From Magnetococcales bacterium (GTDB taxonomy: Bacteria; Pseudomonadota; Magnetococcia; Magnetococcales; JADGAQ01): a stretch of DNA of 64,000 nt. The translations under genes and the position numbers were made by a program. Positions 6,787 to 55,307 of this stretch are shown piece by piece. A model generated the notes under the pieces. The model was not told where the DNA came from and did no database searches. It saw nothing but the letters and a program-made list of their open reading frames with translations. Position 1 is the first letter of the stretch. Each line of letters begins with the position of its first letter. The stretch covers positions 4,791 to 68,790 of the forward strand of contig JADGAQ010000002.1 in assembly GCA_015231925.1 (NCBI GenBank). The letters run 5' to 3'.

Positions 6787-6996
6787 CGGTCCCGCCAGCA
6801 CCTTCCAAACAGCCTAAATAAATTCAAAAAAGACCACATCACCACTTGCCGATTACATCATCCTTCGCTACAAAGAGAATCAACCGGAACGGAGCCGTCA
6901 CGCTCCATGACAAGAAGAGAGTCGGTTCCTCTTCATAAACTATTTGCTTTGTCCAATTCCCATATCCATATGCCCTTTTCCCGGAGTCTCTCCAAC

Positions 6997-7464: not shown

Positions 7465-7471
7465 TTCCATT

Positions 7472-7659
7472 GTAACTATTCAGACCCCTGAACGGTGCAG
7501 CATGATTGTGTCAACGGCGAAAGGAAAAGTCCCAGGGGTGCCCCCTGGATCCCATGGGGTCGGAAGTCAACAGCAAACGGAAGAGTCCCAGGGCGCTGCC
7601 CTGGACCCGTCGAGGGGGAGGGATAATCCCCGCCGCCCCCCATATATCCGAACAGTTAA
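7472..7659. repeat. GC-rich MITE-like element (family D), copy with a duplicated inner module
   Basis: Termini GTAACTATTCAGA ... CCGAACAGTTAA. Inner modules GTCCCAGGG-n-CCCTGGA and GGGATAATCCCC. Related to the copies at 11224, 36302, 37330, 42251, 42488 and 62345. Confidence 0.7.
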
Positions 7660-7830
7660 TATTTTTTCATTTCAAACTACTAAAGAAATTTAAATTAACA
7701 AATTAAAACAAGAGCGGACAATTATCGGAAACATTGAACTTAAACTGTCGCCCCGGTAAAGCCGAAGGTTTGTCAGCCTTCACTTTACTTTATTAGATTT
7801 CATATATCTCAAATCTTAGCGGAGTGGAAG

Positions 7831-8547: not shown

Positions 8548-8578
8548 ATCATCCATACTCTAAATACAGGGGGAGTAT

Positions 8579-11194: not shown

Positions 11195-11223
11195 CGCGGC
11201 ATAGCCGCAACCAAACTGCAATG

Positions 11224-11452
11224 GTAACTGTTCAGGATCCTGCACAGCGGGACATGACCGTATCAACAGCGAAAGAATAAGTCCCAGGGGTACCCCCTGG
11301 ACCCCGGGAGGTCATAACGTCAACGGCAAAAGGAAGAGTCCCAGGGCGCTGTCCTGGATCCGTCGGGGGGGATAATCCCCCCCGAACCCCCGTATATCTG
11401 AATAGTTACTTCCTTTTTGATATTTAAAGGATAACATATTGAAAGTTAAAGG
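11224..11452. repeat. Family-D MITE-like element fused to a partial TIR60 unit
   Basis: GTAACTGTTCAGG ... CCCCGTATATCTGAATAGTTAC followed by ttcctttttgatatttaaaggataacatattgaaagttaaagg. Confidence 0.7.
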
Positions 11453-14357: not shown

Positions 14358-14990
14358 ATGGCTTTGTACATGGTGGAACTTGTCTTGAGGGACCGGCTGG
14401 TGTTGATTGCGGGGGGAGGCATGGTGGCGGCCCGAAAAGTGACGGGAATGTTGCCGTGCGGAGCGCGATTGAAGGTGGTGGCGCCTCAGGCGTGCCCCCA
14501 GGTGGAGGCGTTGGCCCGGGAGGGGCGATTGCAGTGGGTGGTGGACACATTCCGGGAGGGGCATTTGAAGGAGAAGCCGGCGTTGGTTTTCGCCGCCACG
14601 GGAGAGGGGGGGACCAATCGGGAGATTGCCCGTATTTGTGCCCGGCAGGGGGTGTGGTGCAATTCGGCGGATGATCCGGAGGTCTCGGGTTTTCTGGTAC
14701 CGGCGGTGGTGCGGCGGGGGGTGATCAGTGTCGGGGTGGGCACCTCCGGGAACAGTCCGGCGTTGGCGCGGGTGTTGAAGGAGCGGTTGGAGGGGTGGCT
14801 GGATCCGCAGTGGGGTGAGGTGGCGGTATTGTTCGGGCGGTTGAGGGAACGGGTCAAGGAGCGGATCAGGGATGGCGAGGTGCGCAGTCGTTTCTGGCGG
14901 GAGGCGGCGGTGGCGGTGGAGGGGGTGATGCGGGAAGGGAAGAATGTGGAGGACTGGTTGCGGCAGAAGATCGATGCGTTGAGGGAGTAA
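14358..14990 (+). CDS. Siroheme-branch precorrin-2 dehydrogenase/sirohydrochlorin ferrochelatase (SirC/Met8/CysG N-domain-like)
   Basis: 210 aa. Rossmann motif [13 protein letters not shown] and [23 protein letters not shown], typical of the CysG N-terminal domain. Confidence 0.75.
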
Positions 14991-15455
14991 ACGGGGGTCC
15001 GGGGGGGCGAGCCCCCTCGGTGGGGTTTGGGGCGAAGCCCCAAGGTGTGGCCGTCGACGTGGCCGTAAGCGGTCCGCAGACAATCGGTCGTGGCTGCCAA
15101 GCTGTTCCCCAGGCGATCCAAACGGAATCCCGCGGACCGCCGGGGGGGCAAGGGGGGGCCTCATCCCCCCATCCTTGAACCCGACACCCGGCGAAAAGCC
15201 GGTACAGTCCCCAAAAGGCCTGACGGCTGAAGTTGGTTTTGCATCATGCCGTTCGTCCCGGATGGCGAGTCCGCAACGGATGGGGGGATGAGGCCCCCCC
15301 TTGCCCCCCCGCGGTCCGCTGCGAAACAGTCAGCCGGTGCGGGTGAACGGCTTTTGCGCTTATATCGGGGGCAGCGGACCGCTTACGGCCACGTCAACAC
15401 CTTGGGGCTTCGCCCCAAACCCCACCGGGGGGGATAATCCCCCCCGGACCCCCGT
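14991..15455. repeat. Nested palindromic element, copy A
   Basis: Outer arms of about 95 bp (ACGGGGGTCCGGGGGGG...GGCCGTAAGCGGTCCGC vs GCGGACCGCTTACGGCC...CCCCCCCGGACCCCCGT). Inner inverted repeat GGGGGGCAAGGGGGGGCCTCATCCCCCC / GGGGGGATGAGGCCCCCCCTTGCCCCCC. It fills the convergent intergenic space almost exactly, from stop codon to stop codon. Confidence 0.85.
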
Positions 15456-15460: not shown

Positions 15461-16207
15461 TCAGTGCTGCATATGTTCGCTGTGATCGACCACCCCATCC
15501 TCCATCGAATGGTGGTGCGCCCCGCCCGGCCAGGCCATACCCGCCAGCCCGAGCAGAATCAGCAGGATCGCCACCAACCGCCGCCAGCGCGGCTGCTGGG
15601 CGCGGCTCAACAACCACCCGGCCAGCAGACCCGTGGTCACCGTGGCCGGCAAGGTGCCCAAGCCGAACGCCGCCATGGCCATCGCCCCCCGCAAGGGGGC
15701 GCCGCTCGCCGCCGCCATGAGCAGCGCGGCATAAACCAGGAAACAGGGCAGCCAACCCCACACCAAACCCGCACCCCAGGCCCGAAGCGGTGAATCGACC
15801 GGCATGAAACGCCGCCAAAGGGGTTGCAAGGCGCGCCACAACCCTGCACCCAACCGTTCCAGCCCGGCAAGCGCCGGAAGCCACCCGGCCAGTTGCAATC
15901 CGGCCCCCACCAGAATCAGCCCGGCCAGAAACTGCAACACCCGATGGCCCACCGCCATCTCTTCCGGCAGCAAGGTCAAACCCTGACCCAGCCAACCGGC
16001 CAGAAATCCGCCCAGAGTATAACTGGTGATCCGCCCCAGATTGATCAGCAGAACGAACAGCAGCAGCCGGCGGCGATCCTGCCGCACCGCCGGAGGCAGG
16101 CTCATGGAGACCGCACCCAGAATGCCGCCGCACATGCCGACACAATGGAACAGACTGGCCAGACCCAGGAGAAAGGCCGGAATGAAGGAAAAACCGGTAA
16201 CGTCCAT
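15461..16207 (-). CDS. DsbD_2/TauE-like membrane protein with HCxGMCGG motif and His-rich tail
   Basis: Polytopic membrane protein with SLFHCVGMCGGILG and the C-terminal tail GGAHHHSMEDGVVDHSEHMQH. ATG 16207 (MDVTGFSFIPAF) is preferred over the track start at 16351. Confidence 0.65.
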   Translation of the reverse strand: MDVTGFSFIPAFLLGLASLFHCVGMCGGILGAVSMSLPPAVRQDRRRLLLFVLLINLGRITSYTLGGFLAGWLGQGLTLLPEEMAVGHRVLQFLAGLILVGAGLQLAGWLPALAGLERLGAGLWRALQPLWRRFMPVDSPLRAWGAGLVWGWLPCFLVYAALLMAAASGAPLRGAMAMAAFGLGTLPATVTTGLLAGWLLSRAQQPRWRRLVAILLILLGLAGMAWPGGAHHHSMEDGVVDHSEHMQH

Positions 16208-16328
16208 CAAGCGCAACACGATCAAGAGGCAAGGAGAATGGAAAAGGGCATCATGGCGGCATTGACGCGGCTGGTCAATGGGACCATGCTTTGCCGAGGA
16301 ATGACCCGCAAGCGATGAGATAGGATCC

Positions 16329-18440
16329 ATGGACCCGAAAGACATGCACAAGGCCCTGGCCCACTTGCGTCAGGGAGCGGCGGCGGAAGCTCTGGCGGAG
16401 TTTCGCAAGCTGCTGCAACTCCACCCCCATCCGGCGGAACTGCTCTATCACGCCGGGGTGGCGGCCCATCAGGCCGGAGAGGCGCGGGAAGCGCTGCACT
16501 ACCTGGAAAAGGCGGCGCACAAAGCCCCGGAAGTGGCGGAAATCCAGTTCAGCCTGGCCACGGTGCTTTTCGACCTGGGCCGGGAGACGGACGCGGAAGA
16601 GGCCTATCGACGCGCCATCCACGGCAATCCCAAACTGGAACGCGCCCATTTCCGCCTGGGCGAACTGACCCTGCAACGCGGCAACGCCATCGAGGCGATC
16701 CGCCACTTCAAAGCCTCCCTGCAACTGGCTCCGGGACGGGTGGAAACCCTGTTCGGACTGGGCACCGCCCTGGTGGCCGAAGGCCGCTTCACCGGGGCGC
16801 TTCCCGTGGTGCGGGAAGGCATCGCCCTGGGCGACGGCCGCTTTTTGAATCTGCTGGCCCAACTGCTGCCCTGGATCGATCCACCCCGGGAAGAGAACGC
16901 CGCCCTGCAGAAAGAGGTGCTGATTCTGCTGGAACGGCGTCTGACAGACGCTCAACTTCTGATGCCGGTGGTGCTGGAACTGTTGCGTCAGGACCGGCAA
17001 CTGGCGGCTCTGCTGGCTCTGGGCGACGTGACATCGGTGCTGGAGGACAACTCCCTGGAGACGTGGTGGCGGGAAGCCCTGCGGGGGGAACGGGAAGAGG
17101 CCGCCCTGGAACATCCCCTGCTGCGGGCCATCCTGCCGAGAGGACTGCTGGCGGCGGGAGACTGGGAACGGGCCCTGACCAACCTGCGCGCCCTCTGGCT
17201 GGCGGAAATGCGGCATCGGGATGACGACTGGCGTTGCCCGCCGGCGCTGCAACCCCTGCTGCTGGCCCTGGCCCTGCACTGTTTCCATGGGGGGTACGCC
17301 TGGTTCGAAACGGAACAGGAACGGCAGTGGATCGGCGAGGAGCAGGATCGACTGGTGCGCAACGGTCCCGCCTATCCGGCGGAACGCTGGGTGATGCTGG
17401 CCTGCTACCGGGTGTTTCACCGCATTCCGGGTCTGGTGGACGCTTTGCCGGACCATCCGGTTCCGTTGCTCAAGGAGTTGTTGCGTCATACGGTGATGGA
17501 GCCATTGGAAGAAGAGCAGGAGATGCCGCACATCCCTTTGGCCACCAGCCAGATGCCGGGACTCACCTGCGCGGTGCGGGAGCGTTACGACGATCTGGCC
17601 CATCCCCGCTGGCTGCCGCGTTTTCCGCTGCTGCCTTCCGCCATGCCCGGTCTGGAAGCCTGGCTGGCCCAATGCTGTCCCCGGGTGCCCCTGGCCGATT
17701 GGCGTCCCGTCAATCCCCTGCAGGTATTGGTGGCCGGTTGCGGCAGCGGCGAAGAGACCATCCGGCTGGCGGCGCGTCTGCCGTCGGCCCGACTGCTGGC
17801 CGTGGACGACAACTGCTCCGCATTGGCCTACGCCCGCCGGGCCGCCCGTCTTCTGGGGGTGGAAAACGTGCGTTTCGCCCAGGCGGATCTCTCCCGGCTG
17901 GGGGAGTGGCAGGAGAACTTTCACCTGATCGTGGGAGGTGAAAAGCTCCTGTCGGGAACCGACGCCAGCGTTCTGTGGCGCAGTCTGGTGGAGCTGCTGG
18001 CTCCGGGGGGCATCCTGCGGCTGACGATGGAGAGCGAACGGGGTCTCAAGGAGCGTCATCGCCTGCGGGAGTGGATCGCCAAACACGGCGATCTGCCGAC
18101 GGCGGCGGGATTGCGTCAATTGCGGCGCACCCTGCTGGATCAACCCGGTCTCTGGCCCGGATTGCGTCATTCGCCGGAGTTTTACAGCCTGCCGGGCTGC
18201 CGGGAGCTGTTATTTTCGGAAAGTGGCCGGGGTTTTCGCCTGCCCACCATCGCCGCCATGTCCATCGAACTGGGCCTGACGGTACTGGGCCTGGAACTGG
18301 AAGACCCCCGCCTCATGCCCCGCTACCGGGGACGTTTTCTGGAGGACGAAACCGGCACCGATCTGCTGCTGTGGGACCGCTTCGAGGAGGAGACCCCTCT
18401 GGGCAGCCACTATCGCATCTGGTTCCAGGAAGGGAATTGA
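16329..18440 (+). CDS. TPR-repeat protein with C-terminal class I SAM-dependent methyltransferase domain
   Basis: N-terminal TPR-like repeats (AEEAYRRAIHGNPKLERAHFRLG...). The SAM motif VLVAGCGSGEETIRLA...LLAVDDN lies near aa 480. Confidence 0.65.
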   Translation: MDPKDMHKALAHLRQGAAAEALAEFRKLLQLHPHPAELLYHAGVAAHQAGEAREALHYLEKAAHKAPEVAEIQFSLATVLFDLGRETDAEEAYRRAIHGNPKLERAHFRLGELTLQRGNAIEAIRHFKASLQLAPGRVETLFGLGTALVAEGRFTGALPVVREGIALGDGRFLNLLAQLLPWIDPPREENAALQKEVLILLERRLTDAQLLMPVVLELLRQDRQLAALLALGDVTSVLEDNSLETWWREALRGEREEAALEHPLLRAILPRGLLAAGDWERALTNLRALWLAEMRHRDDDWRCPPALQPLLLALALHCFHGGYAWFETEQERQWIGEEQDRLVRNGPAYPAERWVMLACYRVFHRIPGLVDALPDHPVPLLKELLRHTVMEPLEEEQEMPHIPLATSQMPGLTCAVRERYDDLAHPRWLPRFPLLPSAMPGLEAWLAQCCPRVPLADWRPVNPLQVLVAGCGSGEETIRLAARLPSARLLAVDDNCSALAYARRAARLLGVENVRFAQADLSRLGEWQENFHLIVGGEKLLSGTDASVLWRSLVELLAPGGILRLTMESERGLKERHRLREWIAKHGDLPTAAGLRQLRRTLLDQPGLWPGLRHSPEFYSLPGCRELLFSESGRGFRLPTIAAMSIELGLTVLGLELEDPRLMPRYRGRFLEDETGTDLLLWDRFEEETPLGSHYRIWFQEGN

Positions 18441-18789
18441 GGTTTCGGGAAGATAACCGTTCCGCTTGACGAAGGTTTGGGGGGATTATCCCCCTTGACA
18501 TAGGGTGTTGTTTGCCGGTGTTTATGATATATATTATTTTTGATTCCGCATCAATCGCCTTGTTGCGGGATAACTCTTTCGGTCAAAGATTATGCCATCA
18601 TTTTGAGTCACATTATTTATCAGCAGGATCAAGAGCCGCCTGTTCTTTCATCCGGCGCCGTATTTCAATTGAAATGGCTGTTTTGATGGTATACAACGCC
18701 TTATCAGGAGCCTGCGGCGCGGGTTCCGGCGGCTGAACAGAATAATTATCCAATCGATTTCGTTCCTCCCACTATTGGGAAGGAGTGCC

Positions 18790-21312
18790 ATGAATATTCA
18801 GAATGCCAACCTCTTGGAAGCGTCGAGCCGCGTGGCTTTCGCGGCTCTGGTGCATGATCTGGGAAAGTTCGCCGAACGCGCCGAGATGGCCGTTGCCAAG
18901 GCGGAAATAGATCAGAGGAAAAAAGATTATTGTCCAAAAGGTTCTTCAAAATACACCCACGCCCACGCCGCCTATTCCGCCCTGGCCCTACAGGCTCTCA
19001 AGGGGATGCTGCCCGACTTCCAATCGGGAGACATGTTCCCTTTCGACACGTCGAACGAAACCCTGATCGCCGCTGCCGCCGGGCATCACGAGCCCAAAAC
19101 GTCCCTGCAACGCATCGTGGCCATCGCCGACCGCCTGGCCTCGGGATTCGAGCGCAGCAACTTCACAGAATACGAGCGACTCCAGGAAGGAGATGCCCCC
19201 AACGGTGTGGGACTGCATCGCGCCCGGCAATGGCCGATGCTGGAGACCATTTATCCGGATCAGCAGAATTTGAAGGAACCCAAACAACGTTTCCCCCTGA
19301 AGGCCCTGGCTCCGGAAACCCTTTTCCCCGGAGGGTGGAATCCGGGAACTCCAGACGAGGCCAAGGCCGAGTACCGGGAGCTGTGGGACGCTTTCATCTC
19401 CAAGTTGGAAACCCTCTCCCATCGCAACCGTCTACCCTTGTGGCTCGACCATTTCGACAGCCTGTTCCTCACCTTCACCCACGCCATCCCCTCGGCCACG
19501 GTGAGTCGTGAGAATGGACGTTTCACCAAAATCCCCACCGATGTCTCGCTTTACGACCACTCCAAGGCGGTGGCGGCTTTGGCGGTGGCGCTGTGGCGTT
19601 ATCACCTGGAAAACGGCACGGTGGAGGAGGTCTTTTCCAAGTCCAAATGGAACCACTGGGACGAACACGACGTAGCGGAATTTCTGCTGATTCAGGGTGA
19701 CTTCTCCGGCATTCAGGCCTTCATTTTCGACAGCGCGGAATCCACCTCCAAGGCGGCCAAACGGTTGCGGGGTCGCTCCTTCATGGTTTCGCTGCTGACG
19801 GAGCTGGCGGCGTTGAAGGTGCTGGAGACCCTGGAGCTGCCGTCCACCAGCCAGATCATCAACGCGGCGGGCCGGTTTCTCATCGTGGCTCCCAATCGGG
19901 AGACGGTGCAGCAAAAACTGGAAGGGGTGCGTCGCGAGCTGGACGAGTGGTTTTTGCAGCAAACCTTCGGGCAAAGCGGCATCGCTCTGGTGACCACGGA
20001 GGCCAGCCGGCAGGATTTCCATAAAGAGAGGTTCGCCGCCCTGATGGATCGGTTGTTTGTCGATGCCCAGCGCCGTAAACGGCAGCGGTTTGGCCTGTGC
20101 GGCGAGACACCTCCTGCACCGATCTTCGAAGCGGTGGACTATCCCAACGGGCCCTGCGTCGTGGATGGACACAAACCCGGAGAGATCCTGGCGGAGGGCA
20201 AATACCGCTGTCGGCTGTGCAACGATCAGATCACGGCAGGTGATCAACTGGTCAAGCAGAATCTCCTGTTGATCGGATACACCGTTCCGCAAGAATTACC
20301 CGCCCTGGAAGCCAGCTATTTCGGCTATCGGGTTGCTTTCGCCAGAGAAGAGAAAGGTGGGGATTGGCTGCGGGTGTGGGATTTCGCCCTGCCCGAAGCG
20401 GATGGGAAGACTCCCTTGTGGAACGGCTACGCCCGGCGGGCCATCAATGCCCATGTGCCCCGGAATGAGTCGGGCGAACTCCTCGATTTCGAAACGATTG
20501 CCAAAACGGCCATTGTGCCGGATGAATCGGGCAATCCTCGCGGTGTGGCCGCTCTGGGCATTCTCAAAGGCGATGTGGACAATCTGGGAGCGATTTTCCG
20601 CAAGGGGCTGGAGCATCCCACCTTTGCCCGCATGGCGGGTTTGAGCCGACAGGTCAATGCCTTTTTCGCCATCTGGCTGCCCTGGTGGTGTTCCAAAGAG
20701 TTTCCCAATACCTACACGGTCTTCGCCGGGGGGGATGACTTCTTTCTCATCGGCCCCTGGCTTGAACAGATTCATCTGGCGCGGGAGATTTGCAAAGCCT
20801 TGAGGCTATACGGCGGGAAGAATCCTAAGGTGCATCTTTCCGCCGGTCTGGTGATGACCAAACCGGACCTGCCGGTTCCCGCTTTGGACAGCCTTGCGGA
20901 GGAGGCGTTACAACACGCCAAGAACCATGCTGACAAAACCAAGAACGCCATCACCTGCTGGAACCGCACCGTCTCCTGGCAGGTTTTCGAGGAGATGATG
21001 CAGGCGGAAGAAGAGCTGACAACCCTGACGGCTCTGCTGGCCGAAGAGAAGGTGGAGATGAGTTCCGGCTATCTCTACTCCCTGTTGGATCTTTGCGACA
21101 GGGCGGAAAGCCCCCGCCCGGAAGATCAGCTCTGGCGCTCCTGGTTCGTCTACCGCACCTGGCGATTCGTGGTGGATCGCCTGCCGGAAGAAAAGCGGGA
21201 GCCATATTACAAGGATGAGTTTGTCGCCAAGATCGGCAAGCGGCTCCTCTGCCGCAGCGGCGATTACAAAATAGCCCTGTTCACCCATCTTTATCAGCGA
21301 CGGGAGGCGTGA
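18790..21312 (+). CDS. cas10: Type III CRISPR Cas10/Csm1
   Basis: HD domain (ALVHDLGKF, AAGHHE, IADRLASG), first palm domain (LLIQGDFSGIQAFIF), Zn-binding Cys cluster (CVVDGH...CRLC) and cyclase motif FAGGDDFFLIGPW. ATG 18790 follows GGAAGGAG; the track start at 18775 is TTG. Confidence 0.92.
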   Translation: MNIQNANLLEASSRVAFAALVHDLGKFAERAEMAVAKAEIDQRKKDYCPKGSSKYTHAHAAYSALALQALKGMLPDFQSGDMFPFDTSNETLIAAAAGHHEPKTSLQRIVAIADRLASGFERSNFTEYERLQEGDAPNGVGLHRARQWPMLETIYPDQQNLKEPKQRFPLKALAPETLFPGGWNPGTPDEAKAEYRELWDAFISKLETLSHRNRLPLWLDHFDSLFLTFTHAIPSATVSRENGRFTKIPTDVSLYDHSKAVAALAVALWRYHLENGTVEEVFSKSKWNHWDEHDVAEFLLIQGDFSGIQAFIFDSAESTSKAAKRLRGRSFMVSLLTELAALKVLETLELPSTSQIINAAGRFLIVAPNRETVQQKLEGVRRELDEWFLQQTFGQSGIALVTTEASRQDFHKERFAALMDRLFVDAQRRKRQRFGLCGETPPAPIFEAVDYPNGPCVVDGHKPGEILAEGKYRCRLCNDQITAGDQLVKQNLLLIGYTVPQELPALEASYFGYRVAFAREEKGGDWLRVWDFALPEADGKTPLWNGYARRAINAHVPRNESGELLDFETIAKTAIVPDESGNPRGVAALGILKGDVDNLGAIFRKGLEHPTFARMAGLSRQVNAFFAIWLPWWCSKEFPNTYTVFAGGDDFFLIGPWLEQIHLAREICKALRLYGGKNPKVHLSAGLVMTKPDLPVPALDSLAEEALQHAKNHADKTKNAITCWNRTVSWQVFEEMMQAEEELTTLTALLAEEKVEMSSGYLYSLLDLCDRAESPRPEDQLWRSWFVYRTWRFVVDRLPEEKREPYYKDEFVAKIGKRLLCRSGDYKIALFTHLYQRREA

Positions 21313-21693
21313 GTGAATACTACCGGAATTATTCTGAACAATATTCAGAAAGATTTATTTGATGGGGTCGCCGAGAGGGTAGCCAAGGATCTGGCTGCAA
21401 ATCGGCAATCCAATAAACCTACTCAATTGCGTCGTTTTTATGACGAGATTTGTCAATGGACGGAAAAAGTCGATGGCAAGGACGAGACTTACAAAACATT
21501 AAGCCCATTCATTCATATGCTGAACGCCAAGACAGCCTATGCCTTTGGTCGAAACAAACTGGTTGATGCCAACTTTGTAGAATTGATCCGTTACTGCCTG
21601 AACCAGGTCAATAATGCCGAAACCCTCGGCAATTTCAAACTCTTCATGGAAGCGGTGATGGGATTTTATAAATACGAGCGGCCCGGCAACTGA
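21313..21693 (+). CDS. csm2: Type III-A small subunit Csm2
   Basis: 126 aa, helical. Has the Csm2-like TQLRRFYDEI and NAKTAYAFGR motifs. The GTG start abuts the cas10 stop. Confidence 0.8.
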   Translation: MNTTGIILNNIQKDLFDGVAERVAKDLAANRQSNKPTQLRRFYDEICQWTEKVDGKDETYKTLSPFIHMLNAKTAYAFGRNKLVDANFVELIRYCLNQVNNAETLGNFKLFMEAVMGFYKYERPGN

Positions 21694-21703
21694 GGAACAG
21701 ACC

Positions 21704-23322: not shown

Positions 23323-23335
23323 CGGGAGGGAAAAG

Positions 23336-25779: not shown

Positions 25780-25786
25780 TTTTCCT

Positions 25787-28680: not shown

Positions 28681-30384
28681 ATGCAAGACGCCAAAACCCC
28701 TGGGACCGCCCCCGACTTCATCCGCTCCATCATTCGCGACGACCTGCTGGCAGGCCGACACCACCGGGTGGTGAGCCGCTTCCCCCCCGAGCCCAACGGC
28801 TACCTCCACATCGGTCACGCCAAATCGATCTGCCTCAACTTCGGCGTGGCCCAGGAGTTCCCGGGTAGCTGGTGCAACATGCGCTTCGACGACACCAACC
28901 CCGCCAAGGAAAACCCGGAATACGTGCGCGCCATCCAGGAAGACGTCGCCTGGCTGGGCTTCGCCTGGCACGGACCCGTGCGCTTCACCTCCGACTACTT
29001 CGAACAGCTCTACACCTACGCCGAAGAGCTGATCGTCAAAGGATTGGCCTACGTCTGCGACCTCAACGCCGACCAGATTCGCGCCACCCGCGGCACCCTG
29101 ACCGAGCCGGGACAAGCCTCCCCCTTCCGGGATCGCACCGTGGAAGAAAACCTCGACCTCTTCCGTCGCATGCGCGTCGGAGAGTTCGAAGACGGCAGCC
29201 GCCTGCTGCGCGCTCGCATCGATATGGCCTCCCCCAACATCAACATGCGGGATCCCGCCCTCTATCGCATTCGCCGGCTGACCCACCATCAGACCGGGGA
29301 TCGCTGGTGCATCTATCCCACTTACGACTATTCCCACCCCATCTCCGATGCCCTCGAAGGCGTCACCCACTCCCTCTGCACCCTGGAGTTCGAAGACCAC
29401 CGGCCCCTCTACGACTGGATCCTGGCCAACGTCTCCGTGCCCTGCCGCCCCCGGCAGATCGAGTTCTCCCGGTTGGAGATGGAATACACCGTCCTCTCCA
29501 AACGCAAACTCAACACCCTGGTCAACGAAGGCTACGTCAGCGGCTGGGATGATCCCCGCATGCCGACCCTCGCCGGTTTGCGTCGTCGCGGTTACACCCC
29601 GGAGGCCATTCGCACCTTCTGTCAACGCATCGGCATCACCAAATCCGCCGGAACCGTGGAGATGGCCCTGCTGGAAAGCTGCCTGCGCGAGGATCTGGAA
29701 GTGCGGGCGCCTCGGGCCATGGCGGTCTTGCGTCCCTTGAAGATCGTGCTGGAGAACTTCCCCAAAAAAGGCGTGGAAGAGATTCAGGCCCCGATTCATC
29801 CCCAAAAACCGGAAATGGGTCAGCGCACCCTGCCCTTCACCCGCGAGATCTACATCGATCGCAACGACTTCCGCGAAGAGGCTCCCAAGCAGTTCAAGCG
29901 GCTGTTGCCGGGTGGAGAGGTTCGGCTGCGCAATGCCTATGTGATTCGCTGCGAAAAGGTGATCAAGGATCCGGTGACCAAGGAGATCGTGGAGTTGCGT
30001 TGCACCTACGATCCGCACACCTTGTCGGCCAATCCCGAAGGGCGCAAGGTGCGGGGCGTGATTCACTGGGTATCGGCCTCACGTTCCCATGCGGCGACGG
30101 TGCGCCTGTATGACCGGTTGTTCACCCATGCCGATCCGGGTGCGGGTTTGGCGGCGGGGCAGGATTTCACCGCCCGGCTTAATGCGGATTCGTTGCAGGT
30201 GTTGGAGAATGCGCGTTTGGAGGAGAGTCTGGGTGGGGCCAGGCGGGGGGTTTCGTATCAGTTCGAGCGGGAGGGGTATTTCGTGCTGGATGCCGATTCA
30301 ACCCCGGAGATGCCGGTGTTCAATCGCACGGTGGCCTTGAAGGACTCCTGGGCCAGGATTTCCGGCAGACCGGAAGAGGAATGA
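28681..30384 (+). CDS. glnS: Glutamine--tRNA ligase
   Basis: Class I HIGH motif ([14 protein letters not shown]), KMSKS-like VLSKRKL and GlnRS-specific blocks. ATG 28681 is preferred. Confidence 0.95.
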
Positions 30385-30387
30385 GCC

Positions 30388-30839
30388 GTTGCCGTTCAAT
30401 ATGTTTCCTTTAAGTATCAAAAAAAGGAAATGTTCTGTCCGTTGACGTGGCCTTGAGCGGGTCGAAGCCAAAAGGAAAGCGCAGCAACCCGATTCCCCGC
30501 ACGACCTTGGTGAACACTTCGACCCGCCGGAGGGGGCAAAGGGAGGGACTCACCCTCCCCCTCCTTGAACTCACCACCCATAATAAGCCATAGCCTGTTC
30601 CAAGCAAAACTTTCGGATCAAACTCAAATCGCGGCGGAATGGCCACGTCCCAAAAGGATGGGGAGGATGAAGCCCTCCCCTTGCCCCCTCCGGCGGGTCG
30701 AAGATGGGACAGGGTTTGGAAGACGGTGCGGAGTTGGGCACTTCTCCTTTTGGCTTCGACCCGCCAAAGGCCAAGGCCACGTCAAAGGACAGAACATTTC
30801 CTTTTTTTGATACTTAAAGGCAACATATTGAACGGCAAC
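30388..30839. mobile_element. TIR60-bounded composite with nested-palindrome cargo
   Basis: Forward TIR60 30388-30446 and reverse TIR60 30775-30839. The interior holds long inverted repeats (GGGTCGAAGCCAAAAGGA.. / ..TCCTTTTGGCTTCGACCC; GGGGGCAAAGGGAGGGACTCACCCTCCCC / GGGGAGGATGAAGCCCTCCCCTTGCCCCC). It fills the glnS/MBL convergent spacer. Confidence 0.8.
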
Positions 30840-30842
30840 TGC

Positions 30843-33461
30843 TTAATAAATACATTTATTGTTCAAGAACGCCGCATACTGCCGGTCCTCTTCTAAAATA
30901 TGATGAACCAACCAATCCGTAAAGAAGCTGCGGAAATCCTCCTTGGCCACTCCCCCACCCTTCAAGACCGCCCAATAGCCCACCACCCTCTCCACCAACC
31001 GTCGATGATGCTCCCGATGCACCGCCAACCCCGGATATCCATAAAGCGCCATCAACGCCTCCTCTTCCGCGAAATGATACCGGGTATAATCCATCAACGC
31101 CTGAAAGGCCCGCTCCAAAGGCGGCATCTCCCCCGCCCGCTGCATCTCGATAATGCCGTTGGCAATCTCCACCAAGGTCTTGTGCTGCGTGTCCATGCGC
31201 AAGACATGCACACTGAACTCCTCCCGCCAACGCAACACCTCCCGATCATTGCCGGCATGCACAATCTGCAAGGTGCGCCGCGTATACGACTCGAACAACT
31301 TCCAGCGAATGACGGGAATGTCCTTCAGCAACTCCCCATCCACCTGATAAACCTCCGTCTCCTCCTCCACCTCCAGCCGGAACAGACACGGCAGACTGAA
31401 TAACGCCCCCTCCTCCCCGAAATAGGCCCCGCGTTCCAGCATATCCAGAAACTCACTGCCCACCAAACGCCGCAACCGCCCGCTGCGCACCAGATTGAGA
31501 CTGGTCAGATCCTGACAGGTGATGCGCTCCCCCGGACGAAACCGCTTGACCCGCGCCCGATCCAATATCTGACTGAGTACCGGATAGGAAACCCCCTCCC
31601 CAAACAGCGTCGTGGTCTGGAAAAAGGACCACTTCTCCCATAACGCCTCGATCTTGGGCAACAAACCATTCAGCCGAACCAACTCCAGATAAAGCCTGCC
31701 GGGAATCCGCAACACCTGCACATAACTGGCCGCCCGATAGGTGGCCGGCGAGATTTGATGATGCAGACACGACTTCTCCCCGATCAACGCCCCCGCCGAC
31801 AGCCGACTCTGCACATTGTCCCGGGAGATGATGCGCTCCACCACCCCACCCAGAATCAACAACACATTGCCCGCCCGAGTGCCCTCCCGCAAAATGATGC
31901 TGCCCGGATTGAACTCCTCCAGATCGTTGTTGAGCAGAATGCGCACCTGATGCACCGGCATGTCCGGAAAATAGATGCGCAAATGCTCGAAAGCCCCACG
32001 GCGCGTGAAATCGGACTTGCCCACGATGAGAATGTCGGAGGTGCCATACGGCGCCGAAGAGCCGATCTCCTTCTCCTCGGAAGTCAACGGCCGCGCCACA
32101 TGCGCCAACAAAATCTTGCCCGAGGCATCCTGCCGGAAATCCTTGGCCTGCCCGTGAATCAACCCCCCGCCAATGTCGATCTTCTTCAAATCGGCGGGCG
32201 TCAGATAGGCCTCCTCCACCCGATTGTAAAACTCCCGACTCACCCCCGGAACAGAAGTGTCCGCCGTGATCATGCCCCGCAACAAATCCAACGGAACGAT
32301 ATCGGCAAAATGGGCATAGGTCTTGTAACCATTGGCCCACAGGGTGCGAAACAGAAAGATGGAGGTCTCCACCGGATGAGGCGAGAAGATAGGCTTGACC
32401 TCCACCCCTTCGATGTCATTCCACACATCGAAGGTCAAATCACAAATGTCGAAGAAATCCCGAAAACGCTCCTCCTCCATGGAAAGGAGCGCGGCAATCT
32501 TCTTCTCCGTCGAGGCCCGCACCAGCGGCGTGGCGAAATAACGGATGCGATGACCCGCCTGCATGAGAGTGGTGATGCCGGCAAAGTGGTCATCATGGGC
32601 ATGGGTGTGGAAAATGCCCTCCACTTCATCAAGCCCCACCCCCAACGCCGTGAGATTCTGCGCCAGATTGGGACCCGCATCCACCAGGAAGATGCGGCCT
32701 TGAAAAACCAGAATGCTTGACATGGCGGGACGATTGACATCCCAACCATCCCCCTCCCCGGAGTGAATAATAGAGAAGTAGTCCCGCACCAGACGCTGAT
32801 GCACCAGCGGATAGGGGGTTTCGTACTGCTCCCGCGGGGAGAGATTGAGATCCACCGCCACCTCCTCCTCCTGAAAGCGGAAGACGTAGTGGTTGGTGGC
32901 GGTGCGCCGGATGAAAAGACCGTTGCGGATTTCCACCTCCGTCTGCTCCACCAGACAGGTGTCGAGCAGCTCCTGGGAGGGACGAATGCGCCCGAAGGCA
33001 AAACGCAGCTTGAGACGCATTTGCTCCTGCGCCGCCTCCCGGGAGAGCCCGGCCTGCATCAGCTCCTCCAGGGAAACCAGCCCGTAATTGCCGCGATAGA
33101 TGTATTGCAACTGGGCGTTGACCTGCTGCGGCAACCCGATGAGCAGCGGCTTGGCCCCGGTATTGTTGGGATGCCCCGGCAGAATCATGCCCTGTTTGTA
33201 GAGCATCTGCAGCACGGGAAACTCACTCAAATTGGCGAAATCCCCGTTCTGCAACATGGTGTCGGAGAGCAGAATGGCGTTGGGCCCGCTTTCGCACGGC
33301 ACCCCCTGCTTCTCCTTCTGCAGGATGAGACCCCGCTTGATCAGATGCTTGACGCTGTCGGCGGGACATCCGCACAAAATGCGCAGATCGGCCAACGGGG
33401 CCTCCACCCAGTAGATGCCTTGGGATACCGCAATTTTATGGAGTTTCTCCATGCCATCCAC
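30843..33461 (-). CDS. MBL-fold hydrolase (class-II-PDE-like HxHxDH) + two cNMP-binding domains + hemerythrin domain
   Basis: FHTHAHDDHFAGI; two cNMP-binding-like domains (GALIGEKSCL...RAASYVQVLRI; GAYFGEEGALF); C-terminal hemerythrin (HKTLVEI...HFAEEEALM...HREHHRRL...WLVHHILEEDRQY). The N-terminal ~230 aa are unassigned. Start is GTG 33461 or ATG 33452. Confidence 0.75.
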   Translation of the reverse strand: MDGMEKLHKIAVSQGIYWVEAPLADLRILCGCPADSVKHLIKRGLILQKEKQGVPCESGPNAILLSDTMLQNGDFANLSEFPVLQMLYKQGMILPGHPNNTGAKPLLIGLPQQVNAQLQYIYRGNYGLVSLEELMQAGLSREAAQEQMRLKLRFAFGRIRPSQELLDTCLVEQTEVEIRNGLFIRRTATNHYVFRFQEEEVAVDLNLSPREQYETPYPLVHQRLVRDYFSIIHSGEGDGWDVNRPAMSSILVFQGRIFLVDAGPNLAQNLTALGVGLDEVEGIFHTHAHDDHFAGITTLMQAGHRIRYFATPLVRASTEKKIAALLSMEEERFRDFFDICDLTFDVWNDIEGVEVKPIFSPHPVETSIFLFRTLWANGYKTYAHFADIVPLDLLRGMITADTSVPGVSREFYNRVEEAYLTPADLKKIDIGGGLIHGQAKDFRQDASGKILLAHVARPLTSEEKEIGSSAPYGTSDILIVGKSDFTRRGAFEHLRIYFPDMPVHQVRILLNNDLEEFNPGSIILREGTRAGNVLLILGGVVERIISRDNVQSRLSAGALIGEKSCLHHQISPATYRAASYVQVLRIPGRLYLELVRLNGLLPKIEALWEKWSFFQTTTLFGEGVSYPVLSQILDRARVKRFRPGERITCQDLTSLNLVRSGRLRRLVGSEFLDMLERGAYFGEEGALFSLPCLFRLEVEEETEVYQVDGELLKDIPVIRWKLFESYTRRTLQIVHAGNDREVLRWREEFSVHVLRMDTQHKTLVEIANGIIEMQRAGEMPPLERAFQALMDYTRYHFAEEEALMALYGYPGLAVHREHHRRLVERVVGYWAVLKGGGVAKEDFRSFFTDWLVHHILEEDRQYAAFLNNKCIY

Positions 33462-36092: not shown

Positions 36093-36543
36093 TTGACTTT
36101 CAATATGTTATCTTTTAAATATCAAAAAAAGGAAATGTTCTGTCCTTTGACTTTTCGTGACCATTCACTCCTCCTATTTCTCCCCAGCCCCCGAGGGGCC
36201 ATCTGGTCGGGGGGCTGGACGGAAACGGATGGGGCAAAGGACAGAACATTTCCTTTTTTGGATACGTATACCGTGTCTACTTTGGAATACATAATTTTTC
36301 TGTATCTGTTCAAGTATACGGGGGTTTGGAGGGGATTACCCCCCCCCAACGGGTCCAGGGCAGCGCCCTGGGACTTTTCCTTTCGCCGTTGACTTCGTCA
36401 TATCGCGCTGCGCGGGATCCTGAATAGTTATAGAAAAATTACGCATTCCAAAATGGACACGGTATAAATGAATGAAAAATAAAAAGTCAAAGGATAGAAC
36501 ATTTCCTTTTATTGATACTTAAAAGATAACATATTGAAAGTCA
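36093..36543. mobile_element. TIR60-bounded composite carrying a family-D element
   Basis: Forward TIR60 36093-36152, internal partial reverse copy ~36233-36270, second inverted pair ATACCGTGTC.../...GACACGGTAT, reversed family-D core ~36302-36431, and reverse TIR60 36483-36543. Confidence 0.8.
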
Positions 36544-42250: not shown

Positions 42251-42379
42251 GTAACCATTCAGACCCCTGAACAGTGCGGCATGATTGTGTCAACGGCGAA
42301 AGGAAAAGTCCCAGGGCGCTGCCCTGGACCCGTCGGGGGGGATAATCCCCCCCGAACCCCCGTATATCTGAATTGTTAC
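42251..42379. repeat. Family-D MITE-like element (near-consensus copy)
   Basis: GTAACCATTCAGACCCCTGAACAGTGCGG...GTCCCAGGGCGCTGCCCTGGACCCGTCGGGGGGGATAATCCCCCCCGAACCCCCGTATATCTGAATTGTTAC. Confidence 0.8.
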
Positions 42380-46995: not shown

Positions 46996-47034
46996 ACGGG
47001 GTTCGGGGGGGGATTATCCCCTTCGGACCCCCGT
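46996..47034. repeat. Minimal terminal hairpin of the GC-rich repeat families
   Basis: ACGGGGTTCGGGGGGGG-ATTAT-CCCCTTCGGACCCCCGT: the two ends of the large palindromes joined with no cargo. Confidence 0.75.
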
Positions 47035-47725: not shown

Positions 47726-48241
47726 ACGGGGGTCCGGGGGGGATTATCCCCCCCGGCGGGGTTCGGGGCGGAGCCCCGAGGTGTTGCCGTTGCGGTCCGC
47801 TGCAGCCAATGAAATCCCAAAAGTCCCCACCCGCACCCAACGGATTTATCGCAGCGGACCGCGGGGGGGCAAGGGGGGGCCTCATCCCCCCCTCCTTGAA
47901 CCCGCCCCACGACGAGAAGCAGGGCCAACCCTCCGCATCGAGCCTCACGGCGAACGGCAACGGCGAACGGCAACGGATGGGGGGATGAGGCCCCCCCTTG
48001 CCCCCCCGCGGTCCGCTGCGTTTCTCAAGATCGCATTTGGAATCGGCTTTTTGTGCTTCCATTGGCTGCAGCGGACCGCAACGGCAACAGACACGGCAAC
48101 AGACACGGCAGCAGACACGGCAGCAGACACGGCAGCAGGCACGGCAGCAGACACGGCAGCAGACACGGCAACAGACACGGCAACACCTCGGGGCTCCGCC
48201 CCGAACCCCGCCGGGGGGGATAATCCCCCCCGGACCCCCGT
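47726..48241. repeat. Nested palindromic element, copy B
   Basis: Same termini as copy A (ACGGGGGTCCGGGGGGGATTATCCCCCC ... GGGGGGGATAATCCCCCCCGGACCCCCGT) and the same inner GGGGGCAAGGGGGGGCCTCATCCCCCC inverted pair. Confidence 0.85.
48081..48186 (+). repeat. 12-bp tandem repeat inside palindrome copy B
   Basis: ACGGCA[A/G]CAG[A/G]C in about 8.8 copies. Other copies of the element have only ACGTCAACGTCAAC or GTCGACGTGGCC at this position. Confidence 0.9.
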
Positions 48242-54759: not shown

Positions 54760-55209
54760 ACGGGGGGCCGGGGGGATTATCCCACCGGCGGGGGCCGGGG
54801 CGAAGCCCGGGGAGTTGACGTAGCCTTCGGCGGGTCGATGCCAAAAGGTTGAATATATGGTTTCGAGCCACCTTTAAACTAAAGTAATACATCGACCCAC
54901 CGGAGGGACCAGGGGAGGGACTCATCCTCCCCATCCTAAAGGTACCGACACGATACAGCCGGGGCTGTTCAAACGAGGAAATGACTCTGGAAACAACCCC
55001 GAACCAAGGCGGAATGGGCACTTCCCAAAAAGATGGGGAGGATGAAGCCCTCCCCTGGCCCCCTGCGGCGGGTTGAAGCGTTTACCAAGATCGTGCGAGG
55101 GATCGGGTTGGTGCGCTTTCCTCCAGGGCTTCGACCCGCTACGTCAACGTCAACACCTCGGGGCTCCGCCCCGAACCCGCCGGGGGGATAATCGCCCCCG
55201 GACCCCCGT
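54760..55209. repeat. Nested palindromic element, copy C
   Basis: ACGGGGGGCCGGGGGGATTATCCCACC ... GGGGGGATAATCGCCCCCGGACCCCCGT, with the inner pair GGGGAGGGACTCATCCTCCCC / GGGGAGGATGAAGCCCTCCCC. Confidence 0.8.
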
Positions 55210-55307
55210 AATACTTGCAAGATGTCGCCCTGGACCACGGTCTTCTTGCCATTTTAGCGCGATTGTTGCAAATTGTTCACTTCCTGTCACCGTGACCCGG
55301 GTAGACC

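What the first reader, a model, noticed from the sequence alone, without database searches (positions are those of the whole stretch)
14991..15455. Family of 450-515-bp nested palindromes that fill intergenic gaps almost exactly (copies at 14991, 47726 and 54760; variant at 30450)
Each copy has ~95-bp outer arms, a second inner inverted pair and conserved termini ACGGGGGTCC...GGACCCCCGT. Copy A begins at the first base after the stop of 14358..14990 and ends 5 bp before the stop of the convergent gene. Copy B ends 6 bp before the stop of the glycosyltransferase gene. The elements generate several spurious ORFs that share peptides such as GGDNPPRTPV and MRPPLAPPRSAA. Their size, multi-level symmetry and precise placement suggest a mobile, non-coding element that may double as a bidirectional terminator or insulator.
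Basis: seen in the sequence. Interest (0 to 1): 0.55.

Follow-up and report, generated by a model that had tools for sequence, protein, structure and literature searches.

The report
Nested palindromes built from triplex-type hairpins
Four half-kilobase nested palindromes fill the gaps between genes in a Magnetococcales genome; they are mosaics of small G/C-rich hairpin units of the known "intrastrand triplex" repeat type, and those units recur across distant bacteria.

Summary
Four non-coding nested palindromes (A 14991-15455, B 47726-48241, C 54760-55211, D 30384-30843) fold far better than shuffles (z about -20). A, B and D sit within 0-6 bp of stop codons. They are not uniform 0.5-kb transposons. 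They are mosaics. Conserved modules are 84-100% identical between copies, and the spacers between them are nearly unalignable. No target duplication or transposase was found. The outer arms of A-C are inverted copies of a two-hairpin module. That module also occurs alone in the window, in four other Magnetococcales genomes, in Solidesulfovibrio and in many metagenome contigs, with strong stem covariation. Each hairpin is preceded by a run that mirrors its purine arm (G to G, A to A or T). This is the grammar of class-I purine-motif intrastrand triplex repeats (BoxC/PIT/TMECO kind, Holder 2015). Each palindrome carries three or four such units, always on the G-rich strand of the half they lie in. 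D shares the inner core of C but has arms from a separate AT-rich 60-nt repeat family. A terminator role is untested, there is no U-tract, and a purine-motif triplex points to DNA rather than RNA. Verdict: a new variant of a known kind, of moderate interest.

The parts
14991..15455 (.). Copy A, whole nested palindrome between sirC-like (14358-14990, +) and DsbD_2 (15461-16351, -)
14991..15052 (+). A, left outer arm: two-hairpin arm module (GGGGGTCC-hp1-GGTGGGGTTT-hp2)
   Evidence: R1 75.7 bits; class-I triplex unit at 15001
15132..15174 (+). A, left inner arm: GCGGACCGC + K1 unit (GGGGGGG-CAA-GGGGGGG-CCTCAT-CCCCCC)
   Evidence: class-I unit at 15152
15175..15277 (+). A, asymmetric central loop. 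Its first ~28 nt (TTGAACCCG...) are shared with B.
   Evidence: (D16)
15278..15319 (-). A, right inner arm (K1'); 50/50 identical to B
   Evidence: (D12)
15393..15455 (-). A, right outer arm module
   Evidence: R1 82.2 bits
47726..48241 (.). Copy B, between ygjP-like (47040-47657, +) and glycosyltransferase (48248-49504, -). Arms 47726-47788 (+) and 48179-48241 (-); K1 arms 47850-47895 and 47975-48020.
48081..48182 (+). 12-nt tandem array (ACGGCAGCAGAC) x 8.5 inserted in B's right arm
   Evidence: (D5)
54760..55211 (.). Copy C, between response regulator (54345-54743, +) and MCP-hemerythrin (55308-57560, +). Arms 54760-54819 (+) and 55149-55209 (-); K2 arms 54905-54935 and 55032-55062.
30384..30843 (.). 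Copy D, between GlnRS (28675-30384, +) and cNMP/hemerythrin (30843-33461, -). K2 core 30517-30566 / 30654-30703. The outer arms are AT-rich 60-nt modules at 30389-30446 (-) and 30781-30838 (+).
46996..47034 (+). Solo terminal unit forming a complete 39-nt hairpin (ACGGGGTTCGGGGGGGGATTATCCCCTTCGGACCCCCGT), 6 bp upstream of ygjP
11332..11393 (-). Solo arm module (T + Hb) downstream of uvrA, with a second, degenerate Hb copy at 11263-11304
   Evidence: (D7-D10)
42302..42363 (-). Solo arm module (T + Hb); a further copy lies at 42538-42599 (-)
7579..7643 (-). Solo arm module (degenerate T + Hb); a second Hb lies at 7510-7552
36318..36380 (+). Solo arm module (T + Hb) lying inside an AT-module pair (36092-36151 / 36486-36545)

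Best explanation
The four elements are BIME-like composite palindromes. They are not single transposons.

Building blocks (shown). Each is assembled from inverted pairs of small G/C-rich units. A unit reads, 5' to 3' on the G-rich strand:
- a G-rich run;
- a 2-4-nt turn;
- a purine arm;
- a loop;
- a pyrimidine arm.
The two arms form a hairpin. The leading run is the mirror image of the purine arm (G opposite G, A or T opposite A). This is the layout of a class-I purine-motif intrastrand triplex, the kind known from E. coli BoxC/PIT/TMECO repeats.

Anatomy of one palindrome (shown).
- A, B and D score four units, two per half; C scores three (its left terminal hairpin is degenerate and fails the exact search). 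Every unit lies on the G-rich strand of its half.
- The outer arm (terminal hairpin plus GGGGCGRAGCCCC hairpin) is a module that also exists alone.
- The inner K arm is a second such unit.
- The centre and the spacers are free to vary.

How it works (inferred).
- The units are kept by selection or homogenisation acting on single-stranded DNA structure. That could be during replication, or through an unidentified enzyme acting on single-stranded DNA.
- They spread or are copied as modules and accumulate head-to-head in the short spacers after stop codons, where they do least harm.
- In transcripts of convergent genes the whole palindrome would give a very stable hairpin. That could stop read-through or protect 3' ends, but as a by-product.
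For: Real, strong palindromes.

Modular make-up and mosaic combinations in 15 intergenic regions of the window.

Mosaic identity between copies: the K' arm is 50/50 identical between A and B while neighbouring spacers are 24-50% identical with gaps.

The arm module occurs alone:
- in the window;
- in genome nNGHbin13 (L001, L004);
- in Magnetofaba australis (L005);
- in DMHC-1 (L006);
- in GCA_015229005 (L007).

Stem covariation:
- 97% of cells paired, 10 of 15 pairs changed on both sides, 0 of 500 shuffles as good.
- 98%, 12 of 15 pairs, 0 of 500 on 81 hits.

Range of the terminal hairpin:
- A 24-nt core of it is found exactly (Y = C or T at one position) in 38 metagenome loci.
- One of those loci is Solidesulfovibrio-like: rubrerythrin about 89% identical to named Solidesulfovibrio proteins, best unnamed hit 94%.
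- Variants occur in the finished S. carbinolicus genome and in IMG/VR contigs.

Mirror run upstream of the hairpins:
- 149 of 156 positions and 44 of 46 A positions match in 27 curated units, against 30.6 +/- 2.2 after permutation.
- In an unbiased scan, 22 of 119 hairpins have a perfect 6/6 run, against 4.6 +/- 2.0 (maximum 12). Mirror beats direct 22 to 11.

Class-I motif counts: the window has 27 (5 triads) against 2.7 +/- 1.7, and 9 (6 triads) against 0.13. Fifteen fall in A-D: four each in A, B and D, three in C.

Literature: PMC4666352 describes the kind as intergenic, sometimes in inverted pairs, not linked to transposons, and states that purine-motif triplexes do not form in RNA.
Against: - No experiment shows that a triplex forms. 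In E. coli stable in-vivo formation was not detected (PMC4666352).
- Most units are plain G-runs, where mirror symmetry is trivial. The informative cases number a few dozen and are partly related to one another.
- The 2-nt turn (CC) is itself base-paired and covaries. Hairpin closure and a triplex with so short a turn may therefore exclude each other.
- Units persist at orthologous 3' ends: sirC in three genera, rubrerythrin in two Solidesulfovibrio. In Magnetococcales the G-rich strand is usually the mRNA sense strand. Both points fit a transcript-level role.
- No mechanism of spread was identified.
- Only 64 kb of the source genome could be read.
Confidence: 0.5

Rival explanations
1. Transcript-level 3'-end elements. 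The hairpins, and in convergent gene pairs the whole palindrome, act as U-tract-less bidirectional terminators, read-through insulators or 3'-exonuclease blocks. They are conserved for that reason.
For: - A, B and D lie within 0-6 bp of the stop codons of convergent genes.
- By my reading of the gene maps, about 14 of 20 strong arm copies in Magnetococcales lie just downstream of a stop with the G-rich strand in the sense orientation.
- A copy sits at the sirC 3' end in three genera and at the rubrerythrin 3' end in two Solidesulfovibrio.
- The RNA folds are very stable.
Against: - No U-tract follows the stems, and there is no enrichment in the terminator scan.
- Orientation is not consistent. 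L001, L006, L077 and L089 have antisense or 5'-side copies, and one array lies inside the gspL-gspM operon.
- G-U pairs are not clearly more frequent than A-C (15 against 8).
- The covarying mirror run has no role in an RNA hairpin, and purine-motif triplexes do not form in RNA (PMC4666352).
- E. coli PIT elements had no terminator activity (PMC4666352).
Confidence: 0.2
2. Classical MITEs. Each 450-515-bp element is a non-autonomous transposon moved in trans through its terminal inverted repeats. The AT-rich pairs are a second MITE family, and D arose by nested insertion.
For: - Long terminal inverted repeats with conserved ends.
- A further half copy whose right half translates almost identically to B's right half, tandem array included (a few substitutions in the array).
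- D-type composites at non-orthologous sites in two genomes.
- 60-nt AT modules and 31-nt terminal units are 100% identical between two genomes whose UvrA proteins are 74% identical.
Against: - No target-site duplication. Flanks are TAA/TAT, CAT/ATA and AAT/AAT.
- No transposase in the window or in the related loci.
- Identity is mosaic rather than uniform.
- Arms also occur singly, in tandem and in both head-in and head-out pairs.
Confidence: 0.12
3. Host-beneficial DNA structural elements. Cruciform and triplex extrusion at these sites is used by the cell, for example as supercoiling or domain barriers between convergent transcription units, as protein-binding sites, or as programmed recombination hotspots.
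For: - Placement between convergent genes, where positive supercoils meet.
- The triplex-type grammar.
- TMECO sites are associated with rearrangement (PMC4666352).
- ygjP and sirC are convergent neighbours in a relative (L003), but in the window they are separated and followed by B and A respectively.
Against: - No binding protein is known and there is no experimental evidence.
- The synteny comparison is between genomes only about 75% identical in UvrA.
- Density and mosaicism look more like selfish accumulation.
Confidence: 0.13

Closest known systems
BoxC / PIT / TMECO intrastrand triplex repeats of E. coli and other bacteria (Hoyne et al. 2000 as cited in, and Holder et al. 2015, PMC4666352)
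   Same: - Three consecutive blocks on one strand: a G-rich third strand, a purine arm and a pyrimidine arm.
- G/C-rich, many copies, always intergenic.
- Sometimes in inverted pairs on opposite strands.
- No link to transposons.
   Different: - The block order is class I (third strand at the 5' end), not class II.
- The sequence is unrelated to CCCTCNCCC...GGGNGAGGG.
- Units come as two-hairpin modules with conserved linkers (GGGGGTYC, GGYGGGGTYY).
- Here they are stacked into 0.45-0.5-kb two-level palindromes.
- They are found in Magnetococcales and Desulfovibrionaceae.
REP / BIME / REPIN elements mobilised by RAYT transposases
   Same: - Short imperfect palindromes at high density in extragenic DNA.
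- Inverted pairs and mosaics with other motifs.
- No target duplication.
- Lineage-specific stem sequences with compensatory change.
- A preference for gene 3' ends.
   Different: - No GT[AG]G head.
- No RAYT flanked by these units was found. The one Y1 transposase seen (L004) is flanked by a different REP.
- The composites are four to five times longer than REPINs.
Bacterial MITEs that fold into long hairpins (Correia, ERIC), and the Porphyromonas gingivalis MITE containing a minisatellite (PMC4596501)
   Same: - Terminal inverted repeats and an intergenic location.
- Transcribed hairpin potential.
- Copy B carries an internal tandem array, as the P. gingivalis MITE does.
   Different: - No target-site duplication.
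- Mosaic rather than uniform similarity.
- Arms exist as independent repeats.
- Palindromy extends over the whole element in two nested levels.

Membership tests
Intrastrand purine-motif triplex repeats (PIT/BoxC/TMECO kind; ITxF class I) | Three consecutive blocks on one strand in the order reverse-Hoogsteen run, purine arm, pyrimidine arm | tested here: met
   My own class-I finder gives 27 hits in the window against 2.7 +/- 1.7 in Markov nulls. Fifteen of them lie in A-D (four each in A, B, D; three in C).
Intrastrand purine-motif triplex repeats (PIT/BoxC/TMECO kind; ITxF class I) | Purine and pyrimidine arms are Watson-Crick complementary (hairpin) | tested here: met
   97-98% of cells paired; 10-12 of 15 pairs show changes on both sides; 0 of 500 shuffles as good.
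Intrastrand purine-motif triplex repeats (PIT/BoxC/TMECO kind; ITxF class I) | Third-strand run mirrors the purine arm with the triad code G*G:C, A*A:T, T*A:T | tested here: met
   149 of 156 positions match in curated units. In the unbiased scan 22 of 119 hairpins are perfect against 4.6 +/- 2.0 after permutation, and mirror beats direct repeat 22 to 11.
Intrastrand purine-motif triplex repeats (PIT/BoxC/TMECO kind; ITxF class I) | ITxF size limits: stem 6-15 triads, loops 1-6 nt | tested here: inconclusive
   Nine units in the window reach 6 exact triads. The terminal unit has 5-6 G triads and a 2-3-nt turn whose CC is itself base-paired.
Intrastrand purine-motif triplex repeats (PIT/BoxC/TMECO kind; ITxF class I) | TMECO consensus CCCTCNCCC N3-6 GGGNGAGGG N3 GGGNGAGGG (class II) | tested here: not met
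   The sequence and the block order both differ. This is therefore the same kind, not the same family.
Intrastrand purine-motif triplex repeats (PIT/BoxC/TMECO kind; ITxF class I) | The oligonucleotide physically forms a triplex | not testable with these tools
   Needs CD, NMR or melting. The available folding tool models Watson-Crick and wobble base pairs only.
REP/BIME/REPIN | Short imperfect palindromes, many copies, extragenic, in clusters with alternating orientation | tested here: met
REP/BIME/REPIN | Conserved GT[AG]G head next to the hairpin | tested here: not met
   The head is (A/T)(A/C)GGGGGTYC.
REP/BIME/REPIN | A RAYT (Y1 transposase) gene flanked by the same repeats | tested here: inconclusive
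   None in the window and none in 884 kb of loci by tblastn. The L004 Y1_Tnp is flanked by a different REP. The full source genome could not be reached.
MITE | Terminal inverted repeats on a short non-coding element | tested here: met
MITE | Target-site duplication | tested here: not met
   Flanks are TAA/TAT (A), CAT/ATA (B) and AAT/AAT (C). No consistent direct repeat.
MITE | Copies similar along their whole length; parent transposon with the same ends | tested here: not met
   Identity is mosaic. No transposase was found. A whole-genome check was not possible.
Intrinsic (Rho-independent) terminator | G/C-rich stem immediately followed by a U-tract | tested here: not met
   The outer and K1 stems are followed by GGACCCCCGT or GGCGGGG, not a T-run. 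The scan shows no enrichment (13 against 11.3; 26 against 20.1). Only the K2 and Hb hairpins give weak hits on one strand.
Any Rfam RNA family | Match at the family's gathering score | tested here: not met
   0 hits at gathering score over the window. In E-value mode there were only sub-threshold chance hits.

The most novel reading that the evidence does not exclude
The hairpin units are under selection for a three-stranded purine-motif DNA fold in vivo. The evidence would be that the leading run covaries with the stem across lineages that span two phyla (for example GGGTTT-CC-AAAGGG, GGGATT-CC-AAAGGG, GGAGGG-TCC-GGGAGG). That would be evolutionary, three-way covariation evidence that intrastrand triplexes form in living cells, which experiments in E. 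coli have not shown. The nested palindromes would then be cruciforms whose arms each carry two triplexes. They would act as structured single-stranded DNA substrates, or as replication or recombination control points, at convergent gene ends.
Probability: 0.25. Interest if true: 0.8.

Novelty: new variant of a known kind. Interest (0 to 1): 0.55.

Why it matters
Intrastrand triplex repeats are abundant in bacteria, but their formation in vivo and their function are unresolved. This family offers three things:
- It is large and phylogenetically wide: Magnetococcales, Solidesulfovibrio and many uncultured genomes.
- It has natural sequence variation in all three strands, so covariation can be used as a test of structure.
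- It has an extreme architecture, with three or four units stacked into half-kilobase palindromes that fill the spacers between convergent genes. This makes a convenient substrate for structural, replication-stalling and transcription-termination assays.

There are also practical consequences. These elements generate spurious ORFs that are already deposited as hypothetical proteins (for example MBF0311659.1). They are also likely to break assemblies of genomes reconstructed from metagenomes.

Tried and rejected
Collection scans for the inner core:
- The inner-core pattern GGATGARGCCCYCCCYTKGCCCCC gave one hit in genome contigs (L001) and none in metagenome contigs. The K core is therefore confined to a narrow lineage.

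Reaching the source genome:
- Exact look-ups of window proteins and of P0001 and P0121 found no contig on record.
- Only the 64-kb window and protein accessions (MBF0307988.1, MBF0311659.1) tie the window to a Magnetococcales genome reconstructed from a metagenome.
- P0002 (L002) turned out not to be a close relative and has no modules.

Census by spurious-ORF protein search: only one further copy.

RAYT hypothesis:
- The Y1_Tnp gene in L004 is flanked by a different REP (CATTCCCGCGGAAGCGGGAATCC), not by these units.
- tblastn found no other copy.

Other checks that led nowhere:
- Target-site duplications: none.
- Rfam: nothing.
- Sigma-70 promoter and terminator scans: no enrichment in the elements.
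- RNA versus DNA by wobble asymmetry: G-T 15 against A-C 8, not decisive.
- Are the arms of one copy more alike than arms of different copies (concerted evolution of arms)? Not clearly: A 0.76 and D 0.79 within a copy, against 0.78 for A-right versus B-left.
- The AT-rich module as a promoter or an A/T triplex: I read TTGACT-17-TAAGTA by eye, but it fails the scan criteria and no consistent triplex layout was found. I did not pursue it.
- Literature searches for the hairpin sequence, for Magnetococcus REP/RAYT and for nested palindromes returned nothing relevant.
Full report
**Source and setting.** The window comes from a Magnetococcales genome reconstructed from a metagenome.
- Its UvrA is 100% identical to MBF0307988.1, which lies on a 78-kb contig. 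The next relatives are about 75% identical.
- The genome itself could not be fetched.
- The window encodes chemotaxis and c-di-GMP signalling proteins with hemerythrin domains, a type III-A CRISPR-Cas locus and housekeeping genes. It encodes no transposase.

- Four nested palindromes are present: A 14991-15455, B 47726-48241, C 54760-55211 and D 30384-30843.
- Outer arms are 60-73 nt in one gap-free stretch and 77-100% complementary. They extend to about 90-100 nt when the next conserved block is included. Inner arms are 31-50 nt and 90-100% complementary.
- As single strands, A and B fold at -358 and -370 kcal/mol, with z = -19.5 and -23.2.
- The terminus and core patterns never occur in shuffled sequence.
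- A begins at the base after the sirC-like stop and ends 5 bp before the DsbD_2 stop. B ends 6 bp before the glycosyltransferase stop. D spans exactly from the GlnRS stop to the stop of the convergent gene. C lies 16 bp after a response-regulator stop and 96 bp before the next start.
- The spurious ORFs and their shared peptides are real. One of these ORFs is deposited as a hypothetical protein.

**The elements are mosaics of modules.** A local module search, together with the repeat families, gives these parts:
- T, a terminal unit: ACGGGGGTCC-GGGGGGGATTATCCCCCCC-GG.
- Ha, a second hairpin (GGCGGGGTTC-GGGGCGGAGCCCC), or its variant Hb (CCAGGGCAGCGCCCTGG).
- A junction, GTTGAC.
- A short palindromic block: GCGGACCGC in A and B, GGCGGGTCGAAG in C and D.
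- An inner K unit: K1 in A and B, K2 in C and D.
- A separate AT-rich 60-nt module.

How the parts combine:
- A, B and C are T+Ha ... K ... loop ... K' ... Ha'+T'.
- D has the K2 core of C, but its outer arms are AT modules.
- T+Hb arms also occur alone or in tandem at 7510-7643, 11263-11393, 36318-36393, 42289-42363 and 42526-42599.
- A complete 39-nt T hairpin sits at 46996-47034.
- AT modules come as inverted pairs around other small palindromes.
- By my count intergenic regions of the 64-kb window carry such modules.

Identity between A and B is mosaic. Modules are 84-100% identical, and the K' arm is 50 of 50. The spacers between them are 24-50% identical with many gaps. C against D behaves the same way. 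Arms of one copy are not clearly more alike than arms of different copies. A recently transposed 0.5-kb element would not look like this.

**Tests for mobility.**
- There is no target-site duplication.
- No transposase or RAYT is in the window or in 884 kb of fetched loci.
- The one Y1 transposase seen (L004) is flanked by a different REP.

Dispersal is nevertheless real:
- A protein search with the element's spurious ORF found a fifth copy on a 2,969-bp contig of the same genome. Its right half translates almost identically to B's right half, including the 12-nt tandem array (a few substitutions within the array). Its left K arm is missing.
- Genome nNGHbin13 has a UvrA 74% identical to the window's. 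It carries a D-type element downstream of gspN, which is a non-orthologous site.
- The same genome carries T, Hb and AT modules 100% identical to the window's, between gspM and gspL.
- In another relative (L003), ygjP and sirC overlap convergently with no element between them.

**The outer arm belongs to a wide family.**
- Solo copies with the same architecture but different stem sequences occur in nNGHbin13, Magnetofaba australis IT-1, Magnetococcus sp. DMHC-1 and GCA_015229005.
- On 12 sequences, 97% of cells pair, 10 of 15 pairs change on both sides, and no shuffle of 500 reaches this.
- A covariance model (R1) finds 20 strong copies in the window and the Magnetococcales loci. It finds none in an unrelated locus (L002), and none in L003.
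- A 24-nt core of the terminal hairpin, searched exactly (Y = C or T at one position), occurs in 38 metagenome loci of 54-68% G+C from about a dozen projects.
- One carrier is Solidesulfovibrio-like. Its rubrerythrin is about 89% identical to named Solidesulfovibrio proteins (best unnamed hit 94%).
- The finished S. carbinolicus genome has variants of the unit, one of them 9 nt after the rubrerythrin stop.
- IMG/VR contigs also carry strong matches in which the first hairpin is highly variable and the second is constant.
- On 81 aligned hits, 98% of cells pair and 12 of 15 pairs covary.
- L080 carries a 320-bp nested palindrome with the same termini but a different core. Nested composites are therefore a recurrent outcome in this family.
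- Rfam has no matching family. Literature searches for the sequence found nothing.

**The unit grammar.** Each hairpin is preceded, after a 2-4-nt turn, by a run that is the mirror image of its purine 5' arm. G stands opposite G, and A or T stands opposite A. Examples:
- GGTTT-CC-AAAGGC
- GGATT-GC-AAAGGC
- GGGGGAT-GC-AAGGGGGC
- GGAGGT-CC-AGGAGGAAGGGC
- CGGTGAGG-TCA-AGGAGAGGC
- GGGGTTT-CC-AAAGGG (S. carbinolicus)

Statistics:
- In 27 curated units, 149 of 156 positions and 44 of 46 A positions obey the code. Shuffling the upstream runs among units gives 30.6 +/- 2.2 at the A positions.
- In an unbiased scan of all fetched DNA, 22 of 119 informative hairpins have a perfect 6/6 mirror run. Permutation gives 4.6 +/- 2.0, with a maximum of 12. 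A direct-repeat reading fits only 11.
- The layout is that of a class-I purine-motif intrastrand triplex (reverse-Hoogsteen run, purine arm, pyrimidine arm), as defined in PMC4666352.
- A simple class-I finder gives 27 sites in the window against 2.7 +/- 1.7 in Markov nulls, and 9 against 0.13 for six triads.
- Fifteen of those sites fall in A-D. A, B and D have four each, two per half. C has three, because its degenerate left terminal hairpin does not score. Every unit lies on the G-rich strand of its half.
- The K units follow the same plan: GGGGGGG-CAA-GGGGGGG-CCTCAT-CCCCCCC.

**Comparison with what is known.**
- The closest described kind is the BoxC/PIT/TMECO repeat of E. coli and about 260 other genomes. 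It is G/C-rich, always intergenic, sometimes in inverted pairs, not linked to mobile elements, and associated with local rearrangement. It shows no promoter or terminator activity, and stable triplex formation in vivo has not been shown (PMC4666352).
- The present family differs in block order (class I rather than class II), in sequence, in its two-hairpin module with conserved linkers, in its host range, and in being stacked into half-kilobase two-level palindromes.
- It also behaves like REP/BIME elements: high density, mosaics, alternating orientation and no target duplication. It lacks the GT[AG]G head and an identified RAYT.

**Mechanism.**
- Shown: the anatomy, the covariation of the stems, the mirror relation of the leading run, the mosaic conservation and the wide distribution.
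- Inferred: conservation acts on a structure of single-stranded DNA. The paper cited above states that purine-motif triplexes do not form in RNA, and an RNA hairpin gives no role to the leading run.
- Inferred: units spread or are homogenised as modules and pile up head-to-head in the short spacers after stop codons.
- Inferred: any transcript-level effect (a very stable hairpin at the ends of convergent genes) is a by-product.
- I give this reading about 0.5.
- A genuine 3'-end RNA function remains a serious rival, at about 0.2. Units persist at the sirC 3' end in three genera and at the rubrerythrin 3' end in two Solidesulfovibrio. In Magnetococcales about 14 of 20 copies have the G-rich strand in the sense orientation just after a stop (my reading with the gene maps).

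**Limits.**
- Only 64 kb of the source genome could be examined.
- The informative triplex cases are few and partly related.
- The R1-based alignment leans toward the model structure.
- Nothing here shows that any non-B structure forms.

Noticed in passing
window 25721-25773, 28390-28443, 30389-30446, 30781-30838, 36092-36151, 36235-36268, 36486-36545, 37266-37325, 37438-37497, 58630-58787 (three in tandem), 58989-59047, 62255-62315, 62473-62532, 63169-63228, 11400-11450; L001 3305-3358, 5155-5192, 7102-7161: A separate AT-rich 60-nt repeat (GTCAAAGGAYAGAACATTTCCTTTTTTTGATACTTAAAAGATAACATATTGAAAGTCAAA) sits in a 58% G+C genome. It usually occurs as inverted pairs around small palindromes or G/C units. 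It is 100% identical over 60 nt in a genome whose UvrA is only 74% identical. Read inward it contains TTGACT-17 nt-TAAGTA. Its function is unknown.
   Followed up: partly
window 18775-28193: A type III-A (Csm) CRISPR-Cas locus: cas10 with an HD domain, csm2, three RAMP genes and cas6. It is followed by a 20-repeat array at 26015-27527 (repeat GTCATCGCCCCGCTYGATAGGGGATTGAAAC) and a hicB-containing pair at 27553-28193. AT modules lie 240 bp upstream of the array and 200 bp downstream of hicB, in inverted orientation.
   Followed up: partly
L077 7644-7667; L089 2386-2431 and 10585-10630: A 24-nt stretch of the terminal hairpin (GGGGGTCCGGGGGGGATTATCCCC) occurs in a Solidesulfovibrio-like contig, and loop variants occur in the finished S. 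carbinolicus genome. Solidesulfovibrio belongs to a different phylum from Magnetococcales. This suggests horizontal spread of the repeat system or of whatever maintains it.
   Followed up: partly
window 14358-15455 and 47040-48241, compared with L003 8588-9964: In a relative, ygjP and the sirC-like gene are convergent, overlapping neighbours. In the window they are 32 kb apart, and each is followed by one of the two most similar palindromes (B and A). This is a possible rearrangement with breakpoints at the elements.
   Followed up: partly
window 47645-47712: A pentanucleotide tandem repeat, (TGAGG) x 13.6, runs across the 3' end of the ygjP-like gene and up to copy B.
   Followed up: no
window 42526-42599: The 3' end of the methyltransferase ORF (42526-43374, -) runs through a T+Hb arm module. 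The annotated C-terminus may therefore be encoded by the repeat, or the gene may have been truncated by it.
   Followed up: no
window 6900-11200: A lower-G+C stretch (50-53%) holds a Ros/MucR regulator and two large ORFs without any Pfam match (7831-8547 and 8579-11194). It is bounded on both sides by tandem Hb+T modules. It may be an acquired island.
   Followed up: no
L004 17476-18560: A Y1 (IS200/RAYT-like) transposase gene in genome nNGHbin13 is followed by two direct copies and one inverted copy of a different REP (CGTCATTCCCGCGRAAGCGGGAATCCAGGAAAGCCGATCGGCGAATGGCTC). A conventional REP/RAYT system therefore coexists with the units described here.
   Followed up: partly
L001 6800-7165: An array of two T units, three Hb units and one AT module fills the gap between gspM and gspL, inside what should be a type II secretion operon. 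These repeats are therefore tolerated within operons.
   Followed up: no
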